A stretch of DNA of 64,000 nucleotides from Carcharhinus longimanus (Eukaryota), in assembly GCA_030264375.1 (NCBI GenBank), contig JASCQW010000177.1, positions 15,347,243 to 15,411,242 of the forward strand, written 5' to 3'. The notes under the pieces are model-generated. The model saw only the letters and a list, made by a program, of their open reading frames with translations. It was not told the DNA's origin and did no database searches. Positions 558 to 64,000 of the stretch are shown in pieces. Numbering within the stretch: the first letter of the stretch is position 1; each line of letters begins with the position of its first letter. A program made the translations under genes and the position numbers.

Positions 558-708
558 CAGGAAGGAACAGAGGAAAATGAAGGAGACAAAATAGAAATAG
601 GCAAACTCATTGCCACATTCGTTTCCTGCGATGCCAGATTTTGGATCACATGGTTTGCCACCCAAGCATGATAACATGATACTATGCCATGCCTCTCCTG
701 TTGCACTC
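558..708 (-). CDS. CACNA1A: CACNA1A exon ~35 (151 nt), domain IV pore loop and S6 start: (R)[50 protein letters not shown]
   Basis: Acceptor tatttcag at 709-716 and donor gtaagt at 552-557 (minus strand); contains the selectivity-filter TGEAW motif. Confidence 0.97.
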
Positions 709-1341: not shown

Positions 1342-1439
1342 CGGAAAAGAAGTATCAGGGCTTGGAAGAATGTTCTGAAGTTGTTGTGGTGATTAATTTC
1401 ACTATCTTCATCATCATCAATTGCAATATTTCCAAATAC
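1342..1439 (-). CDS. CACNA1A: CACNA1A exon ~34 (98 nt): [32 protein letters not shown](R)
   Basis: Acceptor ttttgcag, donor gtaaaa; phase 0 to phase 2 joins exons 33 and 35; [10 protein letters not shown] motif. Confidence 0.95.
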
Positions 1440-6996: not shown

Positions 6997-7062
6997 CTGC
7001 ATTCCGATAATCGCATAAATGAAGAACAGCATTGCGATCAGGAGACAGACGTAAGGCAATGC
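6997..7062 (-). CDS. CACNA1A: CACNA1A exon ~33 (66 nt): [22 protein letters not shown] (IV S5)
   Basis: Acceptor tttttcag, donor gtgaga; canonical Cav2 sequence. Confidence 0.97.
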
Positions 7063-7658: not shown

Positions 7659-7844
<186 letters not shown>

Positions 7845-10431: not shown

Positions 10432-11664
10432 CTTTTATCGGCAATGATCTATATCAAAATACAATAGCAACAGACTGGTTCAGACAGTAATAGTGCACAC
10501 TGGCTGCAGATTTTGGTNNNNNNNNNNNNNNNNNNNNNNNNNNNNNNNNNNNNNNNNNNNNNNNNNNNNNNNNNNNNNNNNNNNNNNNNNNNNNNNNNNN
10601 NNNNNNNNNNNNNNNNNAGTGCACACTGGCTGCAGATTTTGGTCAGGAAATAACAATTAACACACATGTGTATACATATACACACATTATTAGTCTGCAG
10701 TTTGTTTTTAATTTGCCCTCTGGATATTTGGCACTATTTTTCTCACAATGTTTGTACAGTGATTATATAAAAAGCACCCATTAGCAGAGATTTTTCTCAT
10801 TTTCTTAATTCTGCTACTAATTTAGATAAAAATAACTGGAAAGGTCACACCATACCCAATTGGAAAATTGTCTGACTTCCAGGTTGAAAAAATAGTGCCC
10901 AAAAATAACCATCAGGTGGTGAGAGAGCACCAGTACCATTCAAAGGTAAGTGTTAGTACAGTTGATTTGTTTCAGAAGGCCTGCATATTGTTAAGTCTCT
11001 GTCAGTACACATATCGCTTATATACATTTAGGTTAGGTAAAAAAACTGGTTACAGCAAACTTAATTCCTCACTTTCTAGTTTCTGCGCAATGCCCAAGTG
11101 GTTGGACCAATCTGTTACTATATAACAATGATCAGGTGTCTCGCAAAATATCCATTCCATTTCTCACTTTTACATAGCCTTTCCAAAAGGCTGCTAATAA
11201 TTGAACAGGTGGTTGGCAAACTCCTTATTTGCATTTATAAACGCACAATACAAACATTGTAGGGGTACTTAAACACAATATTATAATGAAGATAAGGCAT
11301 GGTCCTTCGCTCTCCCAAATACTTTTCCAGTAAGGCATTGTCTCTTTGAAATGTTTAAGTCTTTCATCCTTTAATTGTCAAAGTGCTTATAACACATAAG
11401 AAAATGAGAACATCTATGTGTTTTGATCCATAACACTATGTACTATTTTCTATTTCTGCCATTCTTCTTTGCTAAACAGGAGTGGACAAGTTTACTTCTT
11501 GTTATAGAATATACCATTGCACAAAGTTTCATATCATATTTTAACAACATTTCACCCAGAAGAAGTAAAATATGGGAAATTTGTAATTTCTTTAAAATGT
11601 CAGCAGAATCTGTAATTGCTTTAAAGAATGTTTGAACTTGCATCAATTGTAAAGGGGTTAATTA

Positions 11665-12890
11665 GCAAGTATTAGTGAGAGACAACATGGTTTTGTGAGG
11701 GGAAGGTCATGTCTTACTAACTTGATCGAGTTTTTCGAAAAAGTGATGAAGATGATTGATGAGCAGAGGGCAGTGGACGTTGTCTACATGGACTTCAGTA
11801 AGTTCTTTGACAAGGTCCCTCACGGCAGACTGGTACAGAAATTGAAGTCGCACGGAATCAGAGGTGAGCTAGCAAGATGGACACAGAACTGGCTCGATCA
11901 TAGAAGACAGAGGGTTGTGACAAGTGGCGTTCTTCAGGGATCAGTGCTGTTTGTGACATATAAAAATGATTTGTAGAAAAATGTAACTGGTTTGATTAGT
12001 AAGTTTGCAGACGACACAAAGTTTGGTGGAATTGCAGATAGTGAAGAGGACCATGGGAGGATACAGCAAAATATAGATCGGTTGGAGACTTCGGCGGAGA
12101 GATGGCAGACAAAGTTTAATCCAGACAAATGTGAGGTAATGCATTTTGGAAGGTCTAATACAGATGGGAAATATACAGTAAATGGCAAAACCTTTAAGAG
12201 TATTGAGAGGCAGAGGGATCTGGGTGCACACGTACAGAGGTCACTGAAAGTGGCAACGCAGTGGAGAAGGTAGTGAAGAAGGCATACGATGAAGGCTTGC
12301 GTTCATCGGCTGGGCATCGTTTAAAAATTGGCAACAAATTGGCAGTTTTATAAAACCTTGGTTAGGCCACACTATTTCTCAATTCTGATCATTGCACTAC
12401 CACAATAATGTGGAGATTTTGGAGAGGGTACAGAAAAAATTTACCAGGATGTTGCCTGTATAGAGGACATTAGCTTTGAGGAGAGATTGGAAAAACTTGG
12501 TTTGTTCTCACTAGATTGATGGAGGTTGAGGGGTGACCTGAAGTTTACAAGATTATGAGGAGCATGGACAGAGTGGATAGTCAGAAGCTCTTGCCCAGGG
12601 TGAAAGAGTCAATTACTAGGGGGCATAGGTTTAAGGTCCAAGGATCAAGTTTTAAAGGCAAGTTTTTCTTACAGAGGATGGTGGGTGCCTGAAACTCGTT
12701 GCTGGGGAGGTAGTGGAAACAAATGCAATTATGACTTTTAAGGGGTGTCTGGACAAAAATATGAATAGGACAGCCATGGAGGGATGTGGTCCCCAGAAGG
12801 GTTGGGGGTTTTAGTTCAGACAGGCAGCGTGGTCGGTGCAGGCTTGGAGGGCCGAAGGGCTTGTTCCTGGGCTGTAATTTTCTTTCTAAT
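11665..12890 (+). mobile_element. CR1-clade LINE, 5'-truncated RT and 3' end, decayed
   Basis: RSCLTNLIEFFE...VDVVYMDFSKFFDKVPHGRL, KFADDTK, FNPDKCEVMHFG; stops and frameshifts. Confidence 0.92.
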
Positions 12891-17415: not shown

Positions 17416-17499
17416 CCAGAATTCCGTCACTAATATATCAGTGACACTGCCCAGGACTGTGACAAAATCAAATATATTCCAAGCATCCTGAAAATAGTT
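17416..17499 (-). CDS. CACNA1A: CACNA1A exon ~31 (84 nt): [28 protein letters not shown] (IV S3)
   Basis: Acceptor ctttgcag, donor gtaagt; [12 protein letters not shown] motif. Confidence 0.97.
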
Positions 17500-18207: not shown

Positions 18208-18318
18208 CAGAATTCCAAAGGCAATAATTTTCAGGATACATTCACATGAGAACAAAATGGTGAACACCATATTGAGATACTTTAGAACGTCATCGTAAGA
18301 CTGTGGCTGACCAGAAAA
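18208..18318 (-). CDS. CACNA1A: CACNA1A exon ~30 (111 nt): FSGQPQSYDDVLKYLNMVFTILFSCECILKIIAFGIL (IV S2)
   Basis: Acceptor tggtttag, donor gtgagt; E-C-x-L-K motif of S2; phase 0-0. Confidence 0.95.
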
Positions 18319-21186: not shown

Positions 21187-21360
<174 letters not shown>

Positions 21361-26563: not shown

Positions 26564-27016
<453 letters not shown>

Positions 27017-27839: not shown

Positions 27840-27980
27840 TCTGGCCATCCTTCTCCAGTTGACACAGTGAAGAGAGTCAGCAGAGCCCATAGTACATTAT
27901 CATAATGAAACTCATATCGTTTCCACTCCCGCTTCTGTGCCTTAATATCACTTTCCCTCATGTAGACCAAGTATTGTCCT
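27840..27980 (-). CDS. CACNA1A: CACNA1A exon ~27 (141 nt): (R)[46 protein letters not shown] (III pore loop)
   Basis: Acceptor tgtttcag, donor gtatgt; TGEGW selectivity filter. Confidence 0.97.
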
Positions 27981-30437: not shown

Positions 30438-30946
30438 GTGAATTTGTAGACAGGCAAGTTTTAATTCAATGTGAAATATTATACAGGTCCAGCGGACCAA
30501 AATTTCCCCCAGGAAACCCATTAAAAATGTAAAAGCATAATACTGCGAATGCTGGAACCCGAAATAAAAACAGAAAATGCTGGAAAATCTCAGTCTGACA
30601 GCAGCTGTGGGGAGAGAATTGAACTAATGTTCTGACTCTAGATGACCCTTCGTCAGCTCTATTCTCTCCCCACAGATGCTGTCAGACCTGCTGAGATTTT
30701 CCACCATTAAAAATTCCCTAAATTAAATCACTGGAAAATCTGACTGCTAATTGTTGTACTCCATTTGCACTCTATTATCTCCCTTATCTTCCTCCAATAC
30801 ACACCAGGCCTTATTCAATAGAGACAATGGCAGGTGACTTGTTCTGGAAGTATCTATAGCTTCCTTAAGGATGCAAAGCAACAGCTCAGAGTATATTTTC
30901 TCCATTCTCTCTTTTCTTAACACATCGAACAAATGTTGATCCTTCA

Positions 30947-31237
<291 letters not shown>

Positions 31238-31314
31238 CTATATGGAGAGAGTAACAAAATGAAAGAACCAGAAAAAAATTGCAAAATTTATTAAACTGAC
31301 TAGAACAAATCACT

Positions 31315-32095
31315 GGGCAAAATCTTAACAAAAAATGGCAGAATGTTGTTTCTGATGAGAAAACTGGCATATTTCTCTTCAGAGAAACTGGTTAGTTTTC
31401 TCACCAGATTCCACCATGCAAAAAAATTGATTGGGGCATCCTCTTTAATTGATGCCCTGATCAAAACTGCAATAAACTTTTCCCCAACCCACAGCTGAGG
31501 CCTCAGGGGCTCCCCTCACCACTTCTGCAATCGGAGCAAGCATTCACTTTGACCCCCTTATCCTCCGCGATCATCAGCCCCTTCTCCTCAACACACACCA
31601 CCCCACCTTGGACTGCTCTCGACCCACAATCAAAGCTGCACTAACCACACTCCCTTCCCATATCAGACTCCCACTGGGGCACGACCCTAGGCACAGGTTG
31701 GTACTGTCAGGGTAACACTGTGCCCAGCTGGCAGTGCCAACCTGTGTCAAGGGTACTGCCTGGAGGCATTGCCAGGTCAATGCCTGCACATGTCTCTGGG
31801 GCTCTACTTACCTTTGTGCCCCCAAAAAGACCTCCACATCAGGTTCACACCTGCATTAACTTGTTGTAAACCGCACCAACATCATGTGACATCAGTGCGG
31901 TTTGAAGATATGGTGAGGGGGTGAAGCTACGGCAGGGGAGTGGGTTAATAATATTCAAATGCATGCAAATTATGTCACCAGTGAGGGGCAGGAAGATCTG
32001 AAGTCACGTTCTCCCTGGAGAGGACTGTGGCTTCTAGATCTCAAGCCCCTACTGGCAGTCTTGCAGATAGCAATCACAGGCTCAAGATTTCACCC
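31315..32095. mobile_element. Non-autonomous DNA transposon (Harbinger-like MITE)
   Basis: 12-bp terminal inverted repeats gggcaaaatctt / aagatttcaccc (2 mismatches); GC-rich interior similar to 62362-63010. Confidence 0.55.
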
Positions 32096-32344
32096 TTTGT
32101 GTACAACTATATCTTAGATATGCTTATCAAGATTTCCTAGCAGCCTTTATCTTTTTAATACGTTTGTGATTTCACCAGAACTACCAATCAGATAAAGCTT
32201 TCTGAATATGTTAATAAAGCAATACACAAGGCACTGCAGTCATTCTTTCCTGTTTCTACAGAATTCTGGAACACAGTCTTAGTTTCCCCATAATGGAAAA
32301 GGAAGACGTCTGGAAGTGAAAGCAGTCTAATCAAAGAAAATCTA

Positions 32345-32464
<120 letters not shown>

Positions 32465-33992
32465 CTAAATTAGCACTTCACACAATAACGTCAGCAGTTA
32501 TAGAGCCTTTGGTGACTGTGCAATTGCTCCTTTTTTATACATTGAAAAACTCACCTCATTTCAGGAACATCACACTGAAGTAAAACCTCATGCTTTTTGA
32601 ATAAGTGTATTCACCTGGAATAAAGGCCCAATAAACAATGGCTTTCTATAGCAATTATGCACCCTTTCTCACACTATTTTCACAGCCAACTGGAATTTTT
32701 TCTTAAGTGTTTTATCTTTTATTTTAATTGCATTTCAATGTAGAAATATATTAGTAGTATTGGAATGTTCATTGCATTATTTAAAGAAAGCAGGCAGCTT
32801 TTGATATTTAAACTGTTTAAAGAACAGGTTTCGTCAGAAGTACCCATTGATAGTCTGCTGGCAAACATGCTGTATTCTAATAAAAGCACTGCTAAAAACA
32901 TTTCTCGAACAATGCAGAATCAAAACCGATCTGAATGATAAATTTTCCAATTTAAGTTAAAAAAAAGCAATGACGTAACTAGCATAAGATGCAAACATCT
33001 CATACAATAAACATTTTATATTGCTCCTCAGAAGTGCCTTGGATTTTTATTATGTTAAAGTGCTATATAAATAAGCTGTTGCTGTTAAATATCTTATCCC
33101 AGTCAAGGGTACTGAACACATTTTGCCATTATTTTTCACAGTTGAGTAAATCATTTTTTTCTAAGTAGTATCAAATAGCAAAACCTTTTAGAGAGTTTAT
33201 ATCTGCATGTTTAAAAACGTGGAAGTTTTAATTGTACCTTACAGCACTATAAGCCAATAGTAAACTTCCTGGGAAAGCAATTAATCAGTTGGACACATCA
33301 ATTACTGCAAGTTATGAATCCAGTTGTACAACTGGGTGCCTTGAATCCAAAAGGGAATGATTAATATCTTCCAAGGAACATAGGACTTATTTTATTCATA
33401 GTATTGATAAAAGGGAGAAAAGAATACAATATTTAAACACAAATTATAAGAGCAAAATTTTGAAGGATAAATCCTTCGGGCAGAATTTTACAGCCCCTCC
33501 TGCCAGCAGGATTTCCCGCAGATGGCACTGGACTTTAGGACAGCTTGCCACATTTTATGGTCCAGCCCCTGTCACAGATGGCTGTACATTATACTTCACG
33601 TGTTTTTGTTTTTGCTAAGTGAGGGATGTTAGCGCTGGGGAATGGAACCCTTTTCAAGCAATGATGCTGATATCAAACACTCTTAAGATTAGGATAACAC
33701 AACCAGATTCAGGTTCCCCAGGTTCCCCTTACCCCATCCCAAAAATATACCTCAACACACAGAAGAACCCTCAGCCTCCCTACATTGCACTATTATCGCA
33801 CTTTTGTACTTATAACCAAACATCTTATGGTCGATTACAATGAATTTGACAACTTGGAGTTGAATTATTATTAATCTGTGCTGAAGGCCCTCACTCATTA
33901 GGACTTGTATTGAAACTGTCCAATCAATTTTGTACAGGATCCTTACCACCAATTTACAGGAGTCTGGGTTCAACTTGCACTTAACAAGTTTA

Positions 33993-34280
33993 CAGTGCAC
34001 TCTGCCTCACAGGATCAGGAGCCTGCATTTGTTTCCGGCCTTGGGTTACTGTCTGTGTGGAGTAAGCACATCTCCCTGTGTCTGTGTGAATTTCCTCCAG
34101 GTGATTCGGTTTCCCACCACACTCCAAAGATATGTAGGTTAGGTGGATTAGCCATGGTAAATGTGCAGGGTTATGGGGATGGGGCAGAGTGGAGGGCTTG
34201 GGTGGGATGCTCTTTTGAAGAGTCAGTGCAGACGCGATGGGCCAGATGGCCTCTTTCTGCACAGTAGGGATTCTGTGGTT
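33993..34280 (+). mobile_element. HE1-like SINE
   Basis: Body gtctgtgtggag...tttcctcc...ggttaggtggattagccatg and CR1-like tail. Confidence 0.8.
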
Positions 34281-34904
34281 CTCAAGCATCACAGGATTAA
34301 CCTATTGTCTGAATGCTGTAGGGAAAATATAGGCTGAAATGTTCCAGCTGTTCACACCAGAGGGATTCTCTGGTCCAGCTGCAGTGAATGGAGATTTGGC
34401 TGACCACCAAATTCTCTGTTCTCGCTTGCAGTGGTGACGGGGTCTGAATGGCTAGGAAATTCCGGCCCTACAATATACATCATTTTTTTGAAGAATTAGC
34501 CAGGTTTACCTTTGGCAGAAAATGATAATGTCACTGACAAAGGGTTTGATAAAACTGAAGATTTGTTCTCAGATCCGGAAGCAATTGTATAATGGGTTTA
34601 GCTTGGTAAACTCTTTACAGCTGATATATTTCACTTTAGTTACAGCCTTGCTGCTCAGGGTGTGCTTGTTGCAATCTCAGACAAACAACTCTTACTATCC
34701 TCATGAGAAAGGTTCGAGGATCTCCTTAATTTTTCCTGTCTCAGAATATCAACAGAGTACTTACAAAAAGTTCAAAATTTGTATTCACAAATAAGATCTC
34801 ATCAATCAAATTTATGTAATCACATTTTTCAGATTCAAGGAATGACTCATTTTTTGAGTTCTGATATTTTATTGCAAGATCTTTGAGGCAGCAAACATTT
34901 TAAA

Positions 34905-35262
34905 AATTCTTTCATGAGATGTGGGCATTGGTGGCAAGGCCAGCATTTGTGGCCCATTCCTAATTGCTCTTGAACTGATTGACTTGCTCAGCCATTTCAG
35001 AGGGCAGTTACGAGTTAACCTTATTGCTGTGGCTCTGGAGTCACACGTAGGCCGGACTGGGTAAAGACCATTAGTGAACCAGATGGATTTTTTTATGATA
35101 GCTTCAAGGTCACCATTACTGAGACTAACTTTCAATTGCAGATTTCATTAATTGAATTTAAATTCCACCAGCTGCTGTGGTGAGACTTTTAAAGCATCCC
35201 CAGAATATTAGCCTAAGCTTCTAGATTACTAGTCTGGTGACATTATCACTATGACAGCATCA
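34905..35262 (-). mobile_element. LF-SINE-like copy, near full length
   Basis: Homologous to 6215-6545, including the gatgtgggc...ggcaaggccagcattt tail and the tRNA-like head. Confidence 0.7.
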
Positions 35263-36252
35263 CTCCCTTCGCCACGCATCCTCCATAATAAGAAGGGTAA
35301 GTTGTGAATTTAGTGCATTTCATTGATATTTCTTTTGCAGAATTTTGCTGGGAGTTAGACATTCAGATTCACGTAAACAGGATTACAGATACAGCCATGA
35401 CCAATCTAAGCCACTTGTCTTCATTCTTGCTTAATTGAGCTAGTTTGTTAAATAACTAGTTTGCTAAATCATAAATTAAGAGGTTCTTTTTAGTGTATTT
35501 TCCATATATTTCCTGTGTATACAAATAATGCATAACGCATTAGATTTCTACTGCAGAACTACTTGCAGCACATTGGAGTTTATGAACAGTTGGATAGAAC
35601 TATTCATCAGTAAGGTATAATACTTCATTAACATAATTTCTCAAATGCAGTTTCAGCATTATGGTTGAGTGACAGTGTTCAGTCCTAATTTACATTTACA
35701 CTGTATAAGACTTGATCTTTTAACCGATCCAAGATGGGGTTGATGCAAGGTTCTGTAAAAGGGGCAGGTTCCAACAGAGTGCGATGATATTTTAAAATAA
35801 GTTCATACATGTATGAAAATGTTCTATTATCTATGCCACTATAAAATAGGTTGACTCATCATTCAGAAAACAAAGAACTGATGCATATTTTTTAAAAAAA
35901 TATAGTAATTGAAAAGATATTTACTTCTCAAAATTATTGCTTGATCATCCCCAAAGCTAGACTGGTCAGTTCACAGCTGGATGTGTGGACATCTTAATGT
36001 TTTTAAAATACTACAGTTTTTAAAATACTACAGTTTTTAAAAGTTTCAGCAGTGATACCCAGCATAATCTGATACAATGACTTCAGAACCAACACCCAGC
36101 AGAACTGCAACATAATCACTCATCAGAAAGCACAAATATACATATATAAATAGATATAAAATAGAAAGTGAGAGAAACAGAGAGATACACAGAGAGGTAT
36201 AGAACACTGCAAATTTGCTGAGTATTATAAAGAGAAAGAGCAGAAATATTAC

Positions 36253-36264
36253 CCCATAAGGCTC
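36253..36264 (-). CDS. CACNA1A: Candidate 12-nt alternative microexon e24a (G AGC CTT ATG GG = Ser-Leu-Met-Gly) in the domain III S3-S4 loop
   Basis: Minus strand cactgacccttttctcgtctttcttgacttgctggatcag|GAGCCTTATGGG|gtaata: CUGAC branch point, polypyrimidine tract, UGC near the acceptor, phase 2-2; the peptide nearly matches Cav2.2 e24a SFMG. Confidence 0.85.
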
Positions 36265-37554
36265 CTGATCCAGCAAGTCAAGAAAGACGAGAAAAGGGTC
36301 AGTGTAAAAAAAGGACAAAAAAGCTTTTACACGTACTGCAAGTACAGAGGTGAATCAGACTTAGAAAACAGAAGGCACAGTTATAAAAACCTGAAGGACC
36401 AATACAGACAATGCAGTAAATAGGGAAACAGGACACAGGAGACACAAAGCACAGGCCCCAGCAGTCATGTCAGCCATGCTACATTAAAGAAATTGGTCAG
36501 GATACAATCTCCCTCATAGAATGCAGTTTTAAAAAAAAAAATCGGGATAGGAAAACTCTCCATTATTCTGTGTTCATATTACACACATGTAACCAACTAC
36601 AAGATGTAAAAGAATTTAAATTATTTGTTAATGTAAATTATGTCACTCCAACAGCACAGTTCCTATTAGGTGTTAGACAATATCAGAACCACACTGGGGA
36701 AGTGTAGATAATATTACATGGTGTGACAATGCTATGTGCAGCCTATCAAATTAATTTCACTGATCTTTTCCGATTTAATGCTTAAATAAAAATTTGATTC
36801 AATACAACTTTCAGTGCCTAACATAGATGCAACATGACCACACAATGGACACACATTGCTGCTGCTGCAGTGGGGAGCAAAGCCATTTTTGTAACATTTG
36901 TATAACACTGCAAAAGAGAATTTCCACACAAGTGGTATCACAGCAGGTTGGTGATCTCATCTAATTATTAAATTATAAAAATTACAAATTCATTTGTTCA
37001 TGTAAAACACAAAACATGAATGTTAAACAAAATAATGACTGATAGCCATGTTGTATTTAAATTACCTTTTGGGAGCCTAATTAAAACTTATTAAAGGAGC
37101 AACAATTCCTCATAATCATTAAATATAAAACACAGAAGCCTGTTCAGTATCCTCTATTTCCTGTTTCCCTCTTCTGTTATTCCCCCATGTAGTTTCTTTA
37201 GAGCATGCAATCTTCCCTACAAATTTCTAAGTAGATTCCGGGTTTACTTGGCTTCTGAGGTAGTGCCTGACTATAGATAAAGCACGAATTTTCAGCTTGG
37301 AGAGAAAGTAAGCCACGTAAAAGTGGCATTATTGTTTTATCCCATTCTTCAATTTTCCTCTGCTGTTTTGCATTCCCAGTAAAAAGTCTGACAACACCAG
37401 GTTTTAGTCCAACCGATTTATTTGATAGTAAACGCACAAGCTTTCGGGTTAGTNNNNNNNNNNNNNNNNNNNNNNNNNNNNNNNNNNNNNNNNNNNNNNN
37501 NNNNNNNNNNNNNNNNNNNNNNNNNNNNNNNNNNNNNNNNNNNNNNNNNNNNNA

Positions 37555-51574: not shown

Positions 51575-53480
51575 ACAGGGTCATGGAGAAAAAGCAGGTA
51601 ACTTAAGGAAGGAGTTAGGAGGGCTAAAAGGGATCATGGAAAGTCCTTGGCAAACAGCATTAAGGAAAATTCAAAGGCATTTTATACGTACGTAAAGAGC
51701 AAGAGGGTAGCCAGGGTAAGGGTTAGTCCACTCAAGGATAGTGGAGGGAATCTATGCAAGGAACCAGAGGAAATGGGAGAGATACTAAATGAATACTTTG
51801 CCTCAGTATTCGCCAAAGTGAAGAACTTGGTTGATGAGGACTATAGGGCAGGGTGTGTAGATATTCTGCGTTATGTCAATATCAAAAAGGAGGTGGTATT
51901 GGACATTTTAAAAAGCATTAAAGTAGGTAAGTCCCAGGCCTGATGGGATCTACCCTAGAATACTGAGGGTGGCAGGGGAGGAAATTGCCGGGGCCTTGAC
52001 AGAAATCTTTGTATCCTCACTGGCTACAGGTGAAGTTCTAGAGGAGTAGAGAATAGCCAGTGTTGTTCCATTGTTTAAGAAGGGCAGCAGGGATAATCCA
52101 GGAAATTATAGGCAGGTGAGCCTTATGTCAGTGGTAGAGAAATTATTGGAAAAGATTCTTGGGACAGGATTTATTCACATTTGGAAACAAATGGACTTAA
52201 TAGTGATAAACAGCATGGTTTTGTGAAGGGCAGGTCATGCCTCACTGACCTGATCGAGTTTTTCGCGGAAGTGACGGAGATGATAGATGAGGGAAAGGCA
52301 GTGGATATTGTTACACATGGACTTCAGTAAAGCCTTTGACAAGGTACCTCATGGTAGACTGGTATGAAAGGTGACATTACACAGGACCAGAGGAGGGCTG
52401 GCAAGATGGATACAGAACTGGTTTGCCATAGAAGGCAGAGGGTAGCAGTAGAGGGGTGCTTTTCTGAATGGAAGACTGTGACTAACGGTGTTCCACAGAA
52501 ATCAGCTCTTGGACCTTTGTTGTTCATATACATACATATATATAAAAAAATACATATGATTTGGAGGAAAATGTAGCTAGTCTGATTAGTAAGTTCGCAG
52601 GTGACACAAGAATTGGTGGAGTTGCAGATAGTGGACAGGAGTTCAGAGGATACAGCAAGATATAGGCCAGTTGGAGACTTGGGCGGAGAAATGGCAAATG
52701 GAGTTTACTCCAGCCAAATGTGTGGTAATGCATTTTGAAAGGTCCAATGCATCTAGGAATTATACAGTAAATGGCAGAATCCTTAGGAGTATTGACAGAG
52801 AGATCTGGGCGTACATCTCCACCGATCACTGAAAGTGGCAACACAGATGGATAAGATAGTCAAGAATGCATATGGCATGCTTGCCTTCATCAGTCGGAGT
52901 ACTGAATATAAAAATTGGCAAGTCATGCTGCAACTGTACAGAACCTTAGTTAGTCCTCATTTGGAATATTGTGTAGAATTCTTGTCGCCACACTGTCAGA
53001 AGGATGTAGATGCTTTGGAGAGGGTATGGAAGAGGTTTACCAGGATGTTGCTTGATCTGGAGGATATTAGCTTTGAGGAGAGGTTGGATAAACTTGGTTT
53101 GTTCTCATGGAACAACGGAGGTTGAGGGGTGACCTAATAGAGGTTTACAATATTGAATGGCATGGACAGAGTGGATAGTCAGACGCTCTTTCCTAGGATA
53201 GAAAAGTCAAGTACTAGGAGGCATAGGTTTAAGTGGTGTAGAGAAAAATTTAGAGATATGTGAAGTAAGTTTTTTACACAGAGTGTGTTGAAGATCTGGA
53301 GCCTACTGCCTGGGGAGGTGGTAGAAACAGGTACGATTGCGACATTTAAGAGGCATCTAAGCAAATACATGAATAGGATGGGAACGGAAGGATACGGATT
53401 CCTTAAGTGCATACAGTTTTAGTTTAGGCAGGCATCATGATTGGCGCAGGCTTGTAGGGCTGAAGGGCCTATATTGTTCT
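51575..53480 (+). mobile_element. CR1-clade LINE, ~1.9 kb of ORF2 (RT) plus 3' end, decayed
   Basis: KENSKAFYTYVKSKR, EILNEYFASVF, NYRQVSL, DFSKAFDKVPH, GVPQKSALGPLLF, LYRTLVSPHLEYCV. Confidence 0.93.
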
Positions 53481-56400: not shown

Positions 56401-56899
56401 CTCAACANNNNNNNNNNACATGCAAACATCCAGAAGCACTGGGAAGGAGCAAGAAATGAATGGGACGATACCCTGGCAGATAAATATGCTAGGCAACTCA
56501 AGGTAAGAGGAGAATGGCTTAATTTATTGTGCTAATGCTTAACTGAACATTTTGGCCTATTCCAATCCTAAACACGTTAACAAACGTTGGGTCCAATTGC
56601 TCTCTGCTGTGTTTGATTTCCCTTTCAATTTTATACGTTCCTCTCCTGAAGGTGTCATCTCAGGCTGGGTAGTTCTGTGGGCAATAGTTTTGCTTTGGTA
56701 TCTCAATGCTCAGTCCTCCTGCCTGAGCCTGGACAGTGGCTGTCAGTAGGATACTTAGCCATGAGTGGTCATCACAGCTGAGCCTAACAACCAAACACAT
56801 ACATTTCCACCACAGGTCACTGAAAAATGCTTATGAGCTGAAACATCAGTCGTTCTTTTAAATCCTCCCTAACCAAAAAATATTAAAATCAACAGCCCC

Positions 56900-57139
56900 T
56901 GTTCCAAATATGATCAACAAACTCATGGATCGAGAGATGGAACCTTACAATTTCCAGGTTTATATTGTTCAGTACATTTGATAGATGAGATACCAGGATT
57001 GGATCAATGATATTAGAACAAATGTGACTTTTGGCCAAATAATGTTTTGCGTATTTATGTGACAATCTTCTCCCTAGTATTTTAGTGAAGGTATTACTCC
57101 CATCATTTTCAATGAGTTGACACTGTTAAAATGTGGGAA
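56900..57139 (+). repeat. 240-bp direct repeat, copy 1 (probable donor)
   Basis: Ungapped match to 58982-59221 with 7 substitutions counted by eye. Confidence 0.93.
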
Positions 57140-57513: not shown

Positions 57514-57651
<138 letters not shown>

Positions 57652-58829: not shown

Positions 58830-59450
58830 TCTTGCCTCTGAGTTAGAATGTCATCAGTTCAAGCTTTGAACACAATTTATACAAGCAAATAGTTGCAGTA
58901 TTTAAGGACCGCTGCACTATTAGAGGTTCCGTCTTTTGGCTGAGATGTTAAACCAAGGTCCCATTTGCTCTCACAGATGAATGTTCCAAATATGATCAAC
59001 AAACTCATGGATCGAGAGATGGAACCTTACAATTTCCAGGTTTATATTGTTCAGTGCATTTGCTAAATGAGATACCAGGATTGGATCAACGATATTAGAA
59101 CAGATGTGACTTTTGGCCAAATAATGTTTTGCGTATTTATGTGACAATCTTCTGCCCAGTATTTTAGTGAAGGTATTACTCCCATCATTTTCAATGAGTT
59201 GACACTGTTAAAATGTGGGAAATTGCATTATTTCAAAGAACAAGGGAGTTCTCCTGGTGCCCTGAGCAATATTTATCCTTCAACTAACCAAAACCCAAAA
59301 CACATTTTATCTGGTCATTTATTTAATTGTTGTTTGTAGGAGTTTGCTATTGTGTTTTCTATATTACACTAATAACATTTCAAAAGTACTTTGTTAGCAG
59401 TAAAGGGCTTGGAACATTCCAAAGTTGTGAAAGGTACTATATAAATCCAA
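58830..59450 (+). mobile_element. DeuSINE-like element split by a 240-bp insertion
   Basis: Deu-like core gctgcactattagaggttccgtcttttggctgagatgttaaaccaaggtccc stops at ~58984 and resumes at ~59222 (gcattatttcaaagaacaagggagttctcc...gtgaaaggtactatataaat). Confidence 0.7.
58982..59221 (+). repeat. 240-bp direct repeat, copy 2 (inserted into a SINE)
   Basis: About 97% identical to 56900-57139. Confidence 0.93.
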
Positions 59451-60743: not shown

Positions 60744-60803
60744 CTTAATCACCATTTCAAAGGTAAAGACTCCAGTAAATACATAGTCAAAGTATCTTAA
60801 AAC
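60744..60803 (-). CDS. CACNA1A: CACNA1A exon ~23 (60 nt): [20 protein letters not shown] (III S2)
   Basis: Acceptor ttccacag, donor gtaagt; canonical Cav2 sequence. Confidence 0.97.
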
Positions 60804-61354: not shown

Positions 61355-61587
61355 GATGTGGAGCTGCTGGCGTTGGACCGGGGTAAAACAGAAAGAAATT
61401 CCACAACACCAGTTTAAAGTCCAAACAGGTTCATTTGTAGCAAAAATAAGGTTGGGCCACCTGATGAAGGGACAGGCTGTCCCGAAAGCTTGCGGCTTTT
61501 GCTACAAATAAACCTGTTTGGACTTTAAACTGGTGTAATGGGATTTCTTTCTGTTTTACCCCAGTCCAACGCTGGCATCTCCACATC
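61355..61587. mobile_element. Fold-back Penelope-derived element: ~90-bp inverted arms around a hammerhead motif
   Basis: Arms 61355-61445 and 61497-61587 are near-perfect reverse complements. Confidence 0.8.
61456..61496 (+). ncRNA. Minimal hammerhead ribozyme motif
   Basis: GCCAC-CUGAUGA-A-GGGACA ggc UGUCCC-GAAA-GCU-U-GCGGC: 6-bp stem II, stem I with one mismatch. Confidence 0.6.
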
Positions 61588-63027: not shown

Positions 63028-63290
63028 GATGATGTGGGTATGCCGGCGTTGGACTGGCGTAAACACAGTAAAAAGTCTGACAACACCAGGTTTTAGTCCN
63101 NNNNNNNNNNNNNNNNNNNNNNNNNNNNNNNNNNNNNNNNNNNNNNNNNNNNNNNNNNNNNNNNNNNNNNNNNNNNNNNNNNNNNNNNNNNNNNNNNNNG
63201 AAGGGACAGGCTGTCCCGAAAGCTTGCGGCTTTTGCTACAAATAAACCTGTTTGGACTTTAAACTGGTGTTGTGGGGTTTCTTTCTGTCC
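63028..63290. mobile_element. Penelope-derived fold-back element spanning a gap; another left arm starts at ~63962
   Basis: Left arm gatgtgggtatgccggcgttggactgg...; right part gaagggacaggctgtcccgaaagcttgcggcttttgctacaaataaacc is identical to 61466-61514. Confidence 0.75.
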
Positions 63291-64000
63291 AACTCCTCCC
63301 AACAGGAAACTGTCCTTGCAGGAGCAGTTTAGGGAAATAAGGCAGCAAGATTGTAATCTGATGTTCATTTGAGGGCAGCTTCCCCAGTGGAATCTTTATT
63401 AGCCCAAATCGCTCATAAAGGCTTTTGAATTATATAAACCTAAAAATAGCGAAGAAAATAAGGTAATTGGTAACATGGTGGGTTGGTTTACTGGGTACAC
63501 CATAGCTGAGATTGCTAAGGCACTGTATGATGAAAGTGGCTGTAACCTCATGCAGCACCGATCGGCTGTTCAATTTCTCAGGTTGACAGTATTTGGGTTT
63601 TGAAATCTAACCAATCTGATTATCACATCTGATTTTCTGTAGTTATGAGACTATGCCATGCAGCTATCTCTGGAGGTAAGCATCTTAAAGCAGTTGAAAA
63701 AAAACTCATTTAGACAGGAGATGAATGTAAGTTATGCTGTCCTGATACATGAAACATGGTGTATAGAAGTGGAGGAAAAGAGTAGAATTTTTAACTCTGG
63801 AAATGATGTAGAGAAGACGCTGAGAATACAAGAACACAGGAACACAAAAATTCAAATCTGCAAAAAAGCAACTGACAAAAAAAAAAGAAGCTACAAATGA
63901 AATATTGATTACTGGGGCAGATTTACAATGAAACATACTGTGCCGTGGCATGGGGCCCCAGTGATGTGGAGATGCCGGCATTGGACTGGGGTAAACACAG

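What the first reader, a model, noticed from the sequence alone, without database searches (positions are those of the whole stretch)
36120..36325. 12-nt SLMG microexon in Cav2.1 resembles the Cav2.2 e24a exon
Seen: a textbook microexon context (CUGAC branch point, long pyrimidine tract, UGC about 10 nt before the AG, CU-rich downstream tract). The phase 2-2 exon gives AFAFT-SLMG-GSKGKD. Recalled: Cav2.2 e24a encodes SFMG, Cav2.3 has NALG here, and rodent Cav2.1 e24a was reported as a different tetrapeptide (SSTR). Inference: an S-x-M-G microexon predates the Cav2.1/Cav2.2 duplication and is retained in this lineage's CACNA1A, probably under SRRM4 control.
Basis: partly seen in the sequence, partly recalled or inferred. 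Interest (0 to 1): 0.75.

Follow-up and report, generated by a model that had tools for sequence, protein, structure and literature searches.

The report
Ancient microexon in fish calcium channel
A 12-base optional exon in the P/Q-type calcium channel gene of what is probably a shark or ray is this lineage's copy of an exon already known in mammals; its one notable trait is that its four amino acids resemble the version in the two sister channel genes, probably the ancestral form.

Summary
A 12-nt phase 2-2 exon lies at 36264-36253 (- strand) in the 25-kb intron 24 of a Cav2 gene. It adds SLMG to the domain III S3-S4 loop in frame. It has a CUGAC branch point (A at -35), a 17/18 pyrimidine tract, a UGC at -11 and a 57-nt AG-free zone.

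The gene is CACNA1A: two trees give 99/95 support and 10 of 13 diagnostic columns agree, although the AU test against Cav2.2 is borderline (p=0.054).

The exon is the counterpart of the known cassette e24a. Its orthology across Cav2.1, Cav2.2 and even Aplysia Cav2 is already in print, so 'predates the duplication' is not new.

What I add is the peptide pattern. Cav2.2 inserts are S-F/L-M/I-G (smelt has SLMG itself), Cav2.3 inserts are N-x-M/L-G, and 0 of 17 bony-vertebrate Cav2.1 inserts are of that type (11 end in Arg). This lineage probably keeps the ancestral peptide.

Inclusion was not shown: the one transcript contig seems to skip the exon. SRRM4 control is inferred from motifs only; the papers I read name Nova2. 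Real, known kind, modest interest.

The parts
36253..36264 (-). 12-nt phase 2-2 cassette microexon (e24a counterpart), adds SLMG to the domain III S3-S4 loop
36265..36266 (-). 3' splice site AG (CAG), preceded by a 57-nt AG-free zone
36273..36275 (-). UGC at -11 to -9, SRRM3/4-type enhancer position
   Evidence: motif defined in 10.1101/2024.09.17.613571 passages
36280..36297 (-). Polypyrimidine tract, 17 of 18 pyrimidines
36298..36302 (-). CUGAC branch point, branch A at 36299 (-35); a weaker UUGAC lies at -17
36247..36252 (-). 5' splice site gtaata (lacks G+5)
36133..36246 (-). Downstream pyrimidine-rich tract (63-83% per 30 nt), partly simple repeats (36138-36165, 36170-36195)
57515..57621 (-). 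CACNA1A exon 24 (IIIS2-S3), 35 of 35 residues identical to human Cav2.1 (8X90) and 33 of 35 to Cav2.2; ends phase 2
32351..32447 (-). CACNA1A exon 25 (IIIS4), 97 nt; spliced to exon 26 in a contig of run X1
60744..60803 (-). exon 23
31077..31237 (-). exon 26
27840..27980 (-). exon 27
26585..26786 (-). exon 28
21196..21360 (-). exon 29
18208..18318 (-). exon 30
17416..17499 (-). exon 31
7728..7844 (-). exon 32
6997..7062 (-). exon 33
1342..1439 (-). exon 34
558..708 (-). exon 35; 86 bits to human Cav2.1, 64 to Cav2.2, 56 to Cav2.3

Best explanation
The 12-mer is this lineage's CACNA1A exon 24a, a frame-preserving cassette microexon. When included it lengthens the extracellular S3-S4 loop of voltage sensor III by four residues (SLMG). 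Shown: splice signals, phase, open frames, gene identity and position in the protein. Inferred: (a) it is included in part of neuronal transcripts, with the long branch-point-to-AG distance and the UGC at -11 letting SRRM3/4 assist recognition, possibly together with Nova2 as in mouse; (b) the small-hydrophobic-Met-Gly peptide is the ancestral state of the vertebrate Cav2 exon, kept in Cav2.2, in Cav2.3 and in this Cav2.1, while bony-vertebrate Cav2.1 drifted to polar peptides mostly ending in Arg; (c) lacking that Arg, the exon probably shifts gating little, as reported for SFMG. The host is probably a cartilaginous fish. That rests on a repeat I recall as a shark SINE and on the protein's distance from all bony-vertebrate Cav2.1 (best 91%); no call names it.
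For: Splice architecture and chance tests. Thirteen AG/GT exons join into 520 codons without a stop. Trees of 51 rows put the window among the 22 Cav2.1 rows at 99/95 under both LG+G4 and the C20 mixture. 10 of 13 Cav2.1-versus-Cav2.2 diagnostic columns are Cav2.1, 2 are Cav2.2 and 1 is neither. Among 314 of 381 fetched proteins with a readable linker: 8 of 14 Cav2.2 inserts start S-F/L-M/I-G, including SLMG in smelt P0288 (Cav2.2 by BLAST); 56 of 57 Cav2.3 inserts are N-x-M/L-G; 0 of 17 clear Cav2.1 inserts are of that type (11 end in Arg; 6 teleost ones are SLSG, SSSG, GGSG or GGGG). The human Cav2.1 e24a is also 12 nt in the same phase and matches the window's exon at 7 of 12 bases, including the first four (sequence in PMC11580629 passages; compared by eye). 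The gene is transcribed: an X1 contig joins exon 25 to exon 26 with 0 differences. In relative X6 the contig around the exon differs at 8 of 737 bases against 88 of 4266 elsewhere (p about 0.03-0.04).
Against: No inclusion read or contig was seen. The X1 contig alignment stops exactly at the first base of exon 25 rather than one base further, which fits the skip form (indirect, the joint table was cut, and contigs drop minor forms). The AU test does not formally reject window plus Cav2.2 (log-likelihood 26 lower, p=0.0535). The free trees place the window beside ray-finned Cav2.1 (91/91 and 92/90, unstarred), not below all bony vertebrates, and the peptide class needs 3 changes on that tree for 21 labelled rows, although bony-Cav2.1 monophyly is not rejected (p=0.227). 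No protein labelled as chondrichthyan appeared in the three top-120 lists, so deep conservation is untested. In relative X3 the conservation dip is not significant (31 of 1542 against 93 of 3709, p 0.12-0.16). The donor lacks G+5. A UGC in the last 20 nt also occurs in 2 of 13 ordinary exons. No YCAY cluster lies near the exon (4 YCAY in 300 nt downstream against a mean of 5.3).
Confidence: 0.72

Rival explanations
1. The exon is real and is e24a, but its likeness to SFMG is convergence or drift in a fast-changing tetrapeptide, not retention. Only the first Ser and the final Gly/Arg codon are constrained, by the splice signals.
For: Cav2.1 inserts vary widely (11 peptide types among 17 inserts). 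A goldfish Cav2.1 model has SLSG, one residue from SLMG. The free trees do not place the window basally. Aplysia has AFDS.
Against: Two independent paralogues (Cav2.2 and Cav2.3) carry hydrophobic-Met/Leu-Gly from basal ray-finned fishes and coelacanth to mammals. The exact peptide SLMG occurs in a Cav2.2 (P0288).
Confidence: 0.14
2. Two tandem microexons were ancestral in intron 24: a 12-nt Met-Gly exon and an Arg-ending exon. Ray-finned Cav2.2 keeps both, mammalian Cav2.2 and this gene keep the first, and bony Cav2.1 keeps the second. SLMG would then be the orthologue of Cav2.2 e24a but not of human SSTR.
For: Bichir, paddlefish and cyprinid Cav2.2 models carry SF(M/I)G followed by a 7-residue Arg-ending insert, and 2 models carry the 7-residue insert alone. 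No Arg-ending 12-nt candidate lies in the sequenced part of intron 24.
Against: Human SSTR is 12 nt, not 21, and shares 7 of 12 bases with the window's exon. Teleost Cav2.1 SLSG and SSSG are intermediates. One base change turns the last codon from Gly to Arg. No 21-nt counterpart was found in the window, though intron 24 holds 320 N.
Confidence: 0.07
3. The gene is CACNA1B, or a Cav2.1/2.2 mosaic, so SLMG is an ordinary Cav2.2 e24a.
For: Exon 25 is 97 nt, one codon shorter than in most bony Cav2.1, like Cav2.2. AU p=0.0535. 2 of 13 diagnostic columns are Cav2.2-like. Whole-protein phmmer scores for exons 24 and 27 are tied between 7MIX and 8X90.
Against: Trees 99/95. Exon 24 is 35/35 identical to human Cav2.1. 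Exon 35 scores 86 against 64 bits. The best overall identity is 91% to bowfin Cav2.1 against 85% to the best Cav2.2. Squamate Cav2.1 also has the shorter exon 25 start. The two Cav2.2-like columns are shared with hagfish or Cav2.3, so at least one looks ancestral.
Confidence: 0.04
4. The 12-mer is a chance or dead pseudo-exon that is never spliced in.
For: No inclusion evidence, and the X1 contig probably skips it. The context filters also pass at 2 antisense sites. The donor is weak.
Against: 0 of 300 simulated introns gave the peptide class plus a pyrimidine tract. Length, phase and position match a cassette present in all three paralogues.
Confidence: 0.03

Closest known systems
CACNA1A (Cav2.1) cassette exon e24a, SSTR in human and mouse
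   Same: Same gene, intron, length (12 nt), phase and protein position; 7 of 12 bases identical (compared by eye). The human exon is included at 10-94% depending on brain region, and shifts activation V50 from -11.8 to -15.4 mV (PMC11580629 passages).
   Different: The peptide is hydrophobic and uncharged (SLMG) rather than polar with an Arg. None of 17 bony-vertebrate Cav2.1 inserts has this type. Inclusion is not yet shown here.
CACNA1B (Cav2.2) cassette exon e24a, SFMG
   Same: Near-identical peptide; smelt Cav2.2 has SLMG exactly. Same position and length.
   Different: It sits in the paralogous gene. Nova2 promotes its inclusion in mouse (PMC5633781 passage), but no YCAY cluster is close to the window's exon. 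Ray-finned Cav2.2 has a second 7-residue insert that was not found here.
CACNA1E (Cav2.3) 4-residue insert, NVMG / NVLG / NALG / NTLG
   Same: Same position and length. It is optional in gene models of gar, turtle and goose, and ends in Met/Leu-Gly.
   Different: Starts with Asn; a different paralogue.
Aplysia Cav2 alternate exon 27 (AFDS)
   Same: A 4-residue insert in the same loop, called orthologous to e24a (PMC10657410 passage).
   Different: Unrelated peptide except for the hydrophobic second residue.
SRRM3/4-dependent neural microexons
   Same: Length a multiple of 3, distant branch point, UGC near the AG.
   Different: The donor lacks G+5, no exact UCU_CUC element was found upstream, and dependence is untested.

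Membership tests
Cav2 e24a cassette exon | Lies between exons 24 and 25 of a Cav2 gene, in the domain III S3-S4 loop | tested here: met
Cav2 e24a cassette exon | 12 nt, phase 2-2, frame-preserving, AG/GT bounded | tested here: met
Cav2 e24a cassette exon | Peptide within the range of known inserts | tested here: met
   identical to a smelt Cav2.2 insert; best of 79 candidates
Cav2 e24a cassette exon | Alternatively included in neural mRNA | tested here: inconclusive
   one spliced contig, probably the skip form; contigs only, tissue unknown
Cav2 e24a cassette exon | Inclusion promoted by Nova2 | not testable with these tools
   motif scan only: no nearby YCAY cluster
CACNA1A (Cav2.1) gene | Groups with Cav2.1 in a tree of Cav2.1/2.2/2.3 | tested here: met
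   99/95 in two models; AU against Cav2.2 borderline, p=0.0535
CACNA1A (Cav2.1) gene | Cav2.1-diagnostic residues | tested here: met
   10 of 13 columns
CACNA1A (Cav2.1) gene | Conserved synteny and a separate CACNA1B in the genome | not testable with these tools
   no genome held
SRRM3/4-regulated microexon | UGC between branch point and AG, close to the AG | tested here: met
   UGC at -11; also in 2 of 13 ordinary exons, so weakly specific
SRRM3/4-regulated microexon | Strong, distant branch point and pyrimidine tract | tested here: met
   branch A at -35, 57-nt AG-free zone
SRRM3/4-regulated microexon | Strong, consensus-like 5' splice site | tested here: inconclusive
   lacks G+5; no calibrated splice-site score was computed
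SRRM3/4-regulated microexon | Inclusion depends on SRRM3/4 | not testable with these tools
   needs a minigene or knock-down; no statement on Cav2 e24a found

The most novel reading that the evidence does not exclude
After the split from cartilaginous fishes, bony-vertebrate Cav2.1 remodelled an ancestral, gating-neutral hydrophobic microexon (S/N-x-M-G, still present in Cav2.2, Cav2.3 and this gene) into an Arg-bearing one that tunes the voltage of activation. This lineage would then preserve the state before P/Q-type channels gained a splice-controlled voltage switch in sensor III, a change traceable to a few bases in a 12-nt exon.
Probability: 0.3. Interest if true: 0.55.

Novelty: new member of a known kind. 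Interest (0 to 1): 0.3.

Why it matters
It polarises the history of a known neuronal splice switch in presynaptic calcium channels. The uncharged Met-Gly peptide looks ancestral and the Arg-bearing human SSTR looks derived. SSTR shifts human Cav2.1 activation by about -3.6 mV and the authors point to its Arg, while SFMG is reported to have no clear effect (PMC11580629 passages). SLMG is therefore a natural control for asking whether loop length or charge does the work. For annotation, it marks a 12-nt exon that gene predictors miss easily. The existence and age of the exon are already known, so the gain is modest.

Tried and rejected
No whole genome is held, so synteny and the CACNA1B locus could not be checked.

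The run search listed no holder on record as RNA; X1 was only a guess until its contig proved spliced. The joint, variant and loose-end tables were swamped by repeats (848, 230 and 4072 rows not shown), so I cannot say whether the 12 bases are invariant in X3 and X6. For the divergence comparison I used 5 of 7 outside pieces of X6 and 2 of 7 of X3, dropping those that lie in repeats.

Three protein searches listed no protein labelled as chondrichthyan among their best 120 each. The third used a hagfish region chosen by simulation to rank the window first and still returned none. This is a limit of word-based candidate selection and length caps, not evidence of absence.

Searches of intron 24 for a second, 7-residue fish-type exon and for an Arg-ending exon found nothing convincing. 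A search of intron 31 for the 6-nt e31a exon found no convincing candidate; both introns contain N gaps.

Nova-type YCAY clusters near the exon: none.

Literature: searches gave no paper on a chondrichthyan Cav2.1 e24a, on SLMG in a calcium channel, or on SRRM3/4 control of e24a. Allen et al. 2010 is not held. The supplements of PMC10987577 were unreadable, the one of PMC13281805 was cut and showed only binding-site rows, and bioRxiv supplements are closed; these and VastDB may already list the event. The listing was not followed up, so the shark-SINE label stays recalled.

Earlier scan notes: nothing by sequence or by the full word set. No structure prediction was run; a 4-residue loop insert would not be resolved meaningfully.

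Full report
Observation. On the minus strand a 12-nt segment, GAGCCTTATGGG, lies at 36264-36253 between a CAG acceptor and a gtaata donor. Upstream are a CUGAC branch point (A at -35), an 18-nt tract with 17 pyrimidines and a UGC at -11, inside a 57-nt AG-free zone; the 13 ordinary exons of the window have zones of 15-56 nt. Downstream DNA is pyrimidine-rich, but part of it is simple repeat. The donor lacks G+5.

Gene context. Splice-site scans and tblastn with database proteins located 13 exons, numbered 23-35 by recalled CACNA1A numbering, from 60803 to 558. All are AG/GT bounded and join into 520 codons without a stop. Exon 24 ends and exon 25 starts in phase 2. The candidate lies 21.3 kb after exon 24 and 3.8 kb before exon 25. 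Inclusion adds SLMG and keeps the frame. The position is the extracellular S3-S4 loop of voltage sensor III (PMC11580629 passages).

Is it chance? Context filters alone leave 2 of 211 candidates in intron 24, and 2 sites on each strand of the whole window, so they are suggestive only. The peptide adds the weight. Of 79 open AG-12-GT candidates this one scores best against inserts seen in database proteins. In 300 simulated introns, 22 contained a Cav2.2/2.3-type tetrapeptide between AG and GT, and none had one with a pyrimidine tract as well (the class was defined after seeing the data).

Which paralogue? Trees of 51 rows (22 Cav2.1, 14 Cav2.2, 12 Cav2.3, 2 hagfish and the window; rows picked by me from 308 fetched proteins for taxon spread) place the window in the Cav2.1 clade at 99/95 under two models. 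Ten of 13 diagnostic columns are Cav2.1, two Cav2.2 and one neither. Exon 24 is identical to human Cav2.1 over 35 residues, and exon 35 scores 86 bits to Cav2.1 against 64 to Cav2.2. Against this, the AU test with the window forced into Cav2.2 gave p=0.0535, exon 27 was a tie, and exon 25 has the shorter start typical of Cav2.2, though squamate Cav2.1 shares it. I put CACNA1A at about 95%. The host is probably a cartilaginous fish: the intron repeat near 34120-34280 is one I recall as a shark SINE, and the best identity is 91% to bowfin. No call names the organism.

Comparison of inserts. Of 381 fetched proteins, 314 had a readable linker (paralogue checks). Cav2.1 has 17 clear inserts: SSSR in birds and a snake, SNSR in tortoise, SNQR in frog, SNVR in lungfish, SSAR in paddlefish, SSTR in teleosts (11 ending in Arg), and SLSG, SSSG, GGSG or GGGG in other teleost models (6). 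I set aside three odd Cav2.1 models (P0069, P0094, P0128). Cav2.2 has 14 inserts: 8 begin S-F/L-M/I-G, among them SLMG in smelt; 1 begins SFIR; 2 carry only a 7-residue fish insert; 3 are odd bat models. Cav2.3 has 57 inserts, 56 of them N-x-M/L-G, with NVMG in coelacanth, gar and bowfin, and forms with and without the insert in the same species. These are gene models, not transcripts, and isoforms of one species count several times. Still, two paralogues share the hydrophobic-Met/Leu-Gly pattern with the window and no bony Cav2.1 does, so retention of an ancestral peptide is the simplest reading. On the free tree the class needs 3 changes for 21 labelled rows, because the window groups weakly with ray-finned Cav2.1; a basal position is not rejected (p=0.227).

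Expression and conservation. Four runs were laid on 30900-36700. A 2607-nt contig of X1 joins exon 25 to exon 26 with no differences, so the gene is transcribed and spliced. Its alignment begins exactly at the first base of exon 25. Inclusion would have supplied one more matching base, so this contig probably skips the microexon. That is indirect, the tissue is unknown, and contigs drop minor isoforms. Two related organisms hold the region contiguously at about 2% divergence. The piece around the exon is less diverged in X6 (8 of 737 against 88 of 4266, p about 0.03-0.04) but not significantly in X3 (31 of 1542 against 93 of 3709). Deep conservation in cartilaginous fishes was not testable: none of three protein searches listed one.

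Mechanism. Shown: an in-frame optional exon in a voltage-sensor loop. Inferred: neuronal inclusion helped by SRRM3/4. The UGC position and distant branch point fit the architecture described in 10.1101/2024.09.17.613571 (passages), where about three quarters of dependent microexons have such a UGC and the response is conserved from shark to mammals; that text does not mention CACNA genes. The papers I read name Nova2 as promoting e24a inclusion (PMC5633781 passage; PMC10676324 passage), yet no YCAY cluster lies near this exon. I put SRRM3/4 involvement at about 60%. At the protein level, human SSTR shifts activation by about -3.6 mV and the authors point to its Arg, whereas SFMG reportedly changes little. 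SLMG should therefore behave more like SFMG; this is untested.

What is known. e24a is a described cassette of Cav2.1 and Cav2.2. PMC10657410 (one Discussion passage) already treats SSTR, SFMG and Aplysia AFDS as orthologous, so an origin before the Cav2.1/Cav2.2 duplication is in print. I found no paper on a chondrichthyan Cav2.1 e24a or on the ancestral peptide. Allen et al. 2010 was not held, and supplements I could not read (and bioRxiv files) or public gene models may already contain the exon. Other papers opened: PMC4317164 and PMC7235277 (passages; background) and 10.1101/2024.06.13.598849 (passages; no bearing). All others were seen as search listings only.

Verdict. A real microexon (about 93-95%), the CACNA1A e24a of this lineage, and a new member of a known kind. 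The retained ancestral peptide is a plausible and apparently unreported detail (about 65-70%) that offers a neat natural control for gating experiments. Inclusion and regulator remain unshown. Interest 0.3.

Noticed in passing
P0192, P0194, P0327, P0336, P0334, P0340 (database proteins): Ray-finned fish Cav2.2 models carry a second, 7-residue Arg-ending insert right after or instead of SF(M/I)G, suggesting two tandem microexons in intron 24 of CACNA1B. No counterpart was found in the window.
   Followed up: partly
window 17415-7845 (intron 31, - strand): No convincing 6-nt e31a (NP-type) microexon was found; the intron has three N gaps. The domain IV S3-S4 junction has Trp at the end of exon 31, as in frog and some teleost Cav2.1 models.
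   Followed up: partly
window 27980-27840 (exon 27) and 1439-1342 (exon 34): Exon 27 is one residue longer than in human Cav2.1 and Cav2.2, and its first half is divergent (best database identity 85%). Exon 34 encodes an acidic run in the domain IV pore loop.
   Followed up: no
window 18318-18208 (exon 30): IVS1-S2 is unusually divergent for Cav2.1; the region ranks the window closest to a hagfish Cav2 among 111 aligned rows.
   Followed up: partly
window 36261-36253 and 32447-32440 (- strand): Tandem AG acceptors: a second AG 3 nt into the microexon could give a 9-nt form, and some Cav2.1 models use shifted acceptors at exon 25, so the loop length may vary further.
   Followed up: no
window 56892-57125 and 58974-59207; 61468-61560 and 63200-63330: Near-identical duplicated intronic blocks, the first pair flanking exon 24; either local duplication or an assembly artefact.
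   Followed up: no
window 11662-12270 (+) and 52300-52860 (-): Fragments that read like LINE reverse transcriptase (label recalled); the only other site passing the microexon context filters (52828) lies in one of them.
   Followed up: no
window 34120-34430 and 34900-35200: Very high-copy interspersed repeats (contig depth above 100,000 in the DNA runs), recalled as shark-type SINEs.
   Followed up: no
window 35999-36042: A 17-nt tandem duplication, one copy of which is absent in relatives X3 and X6.
   Followed up: no
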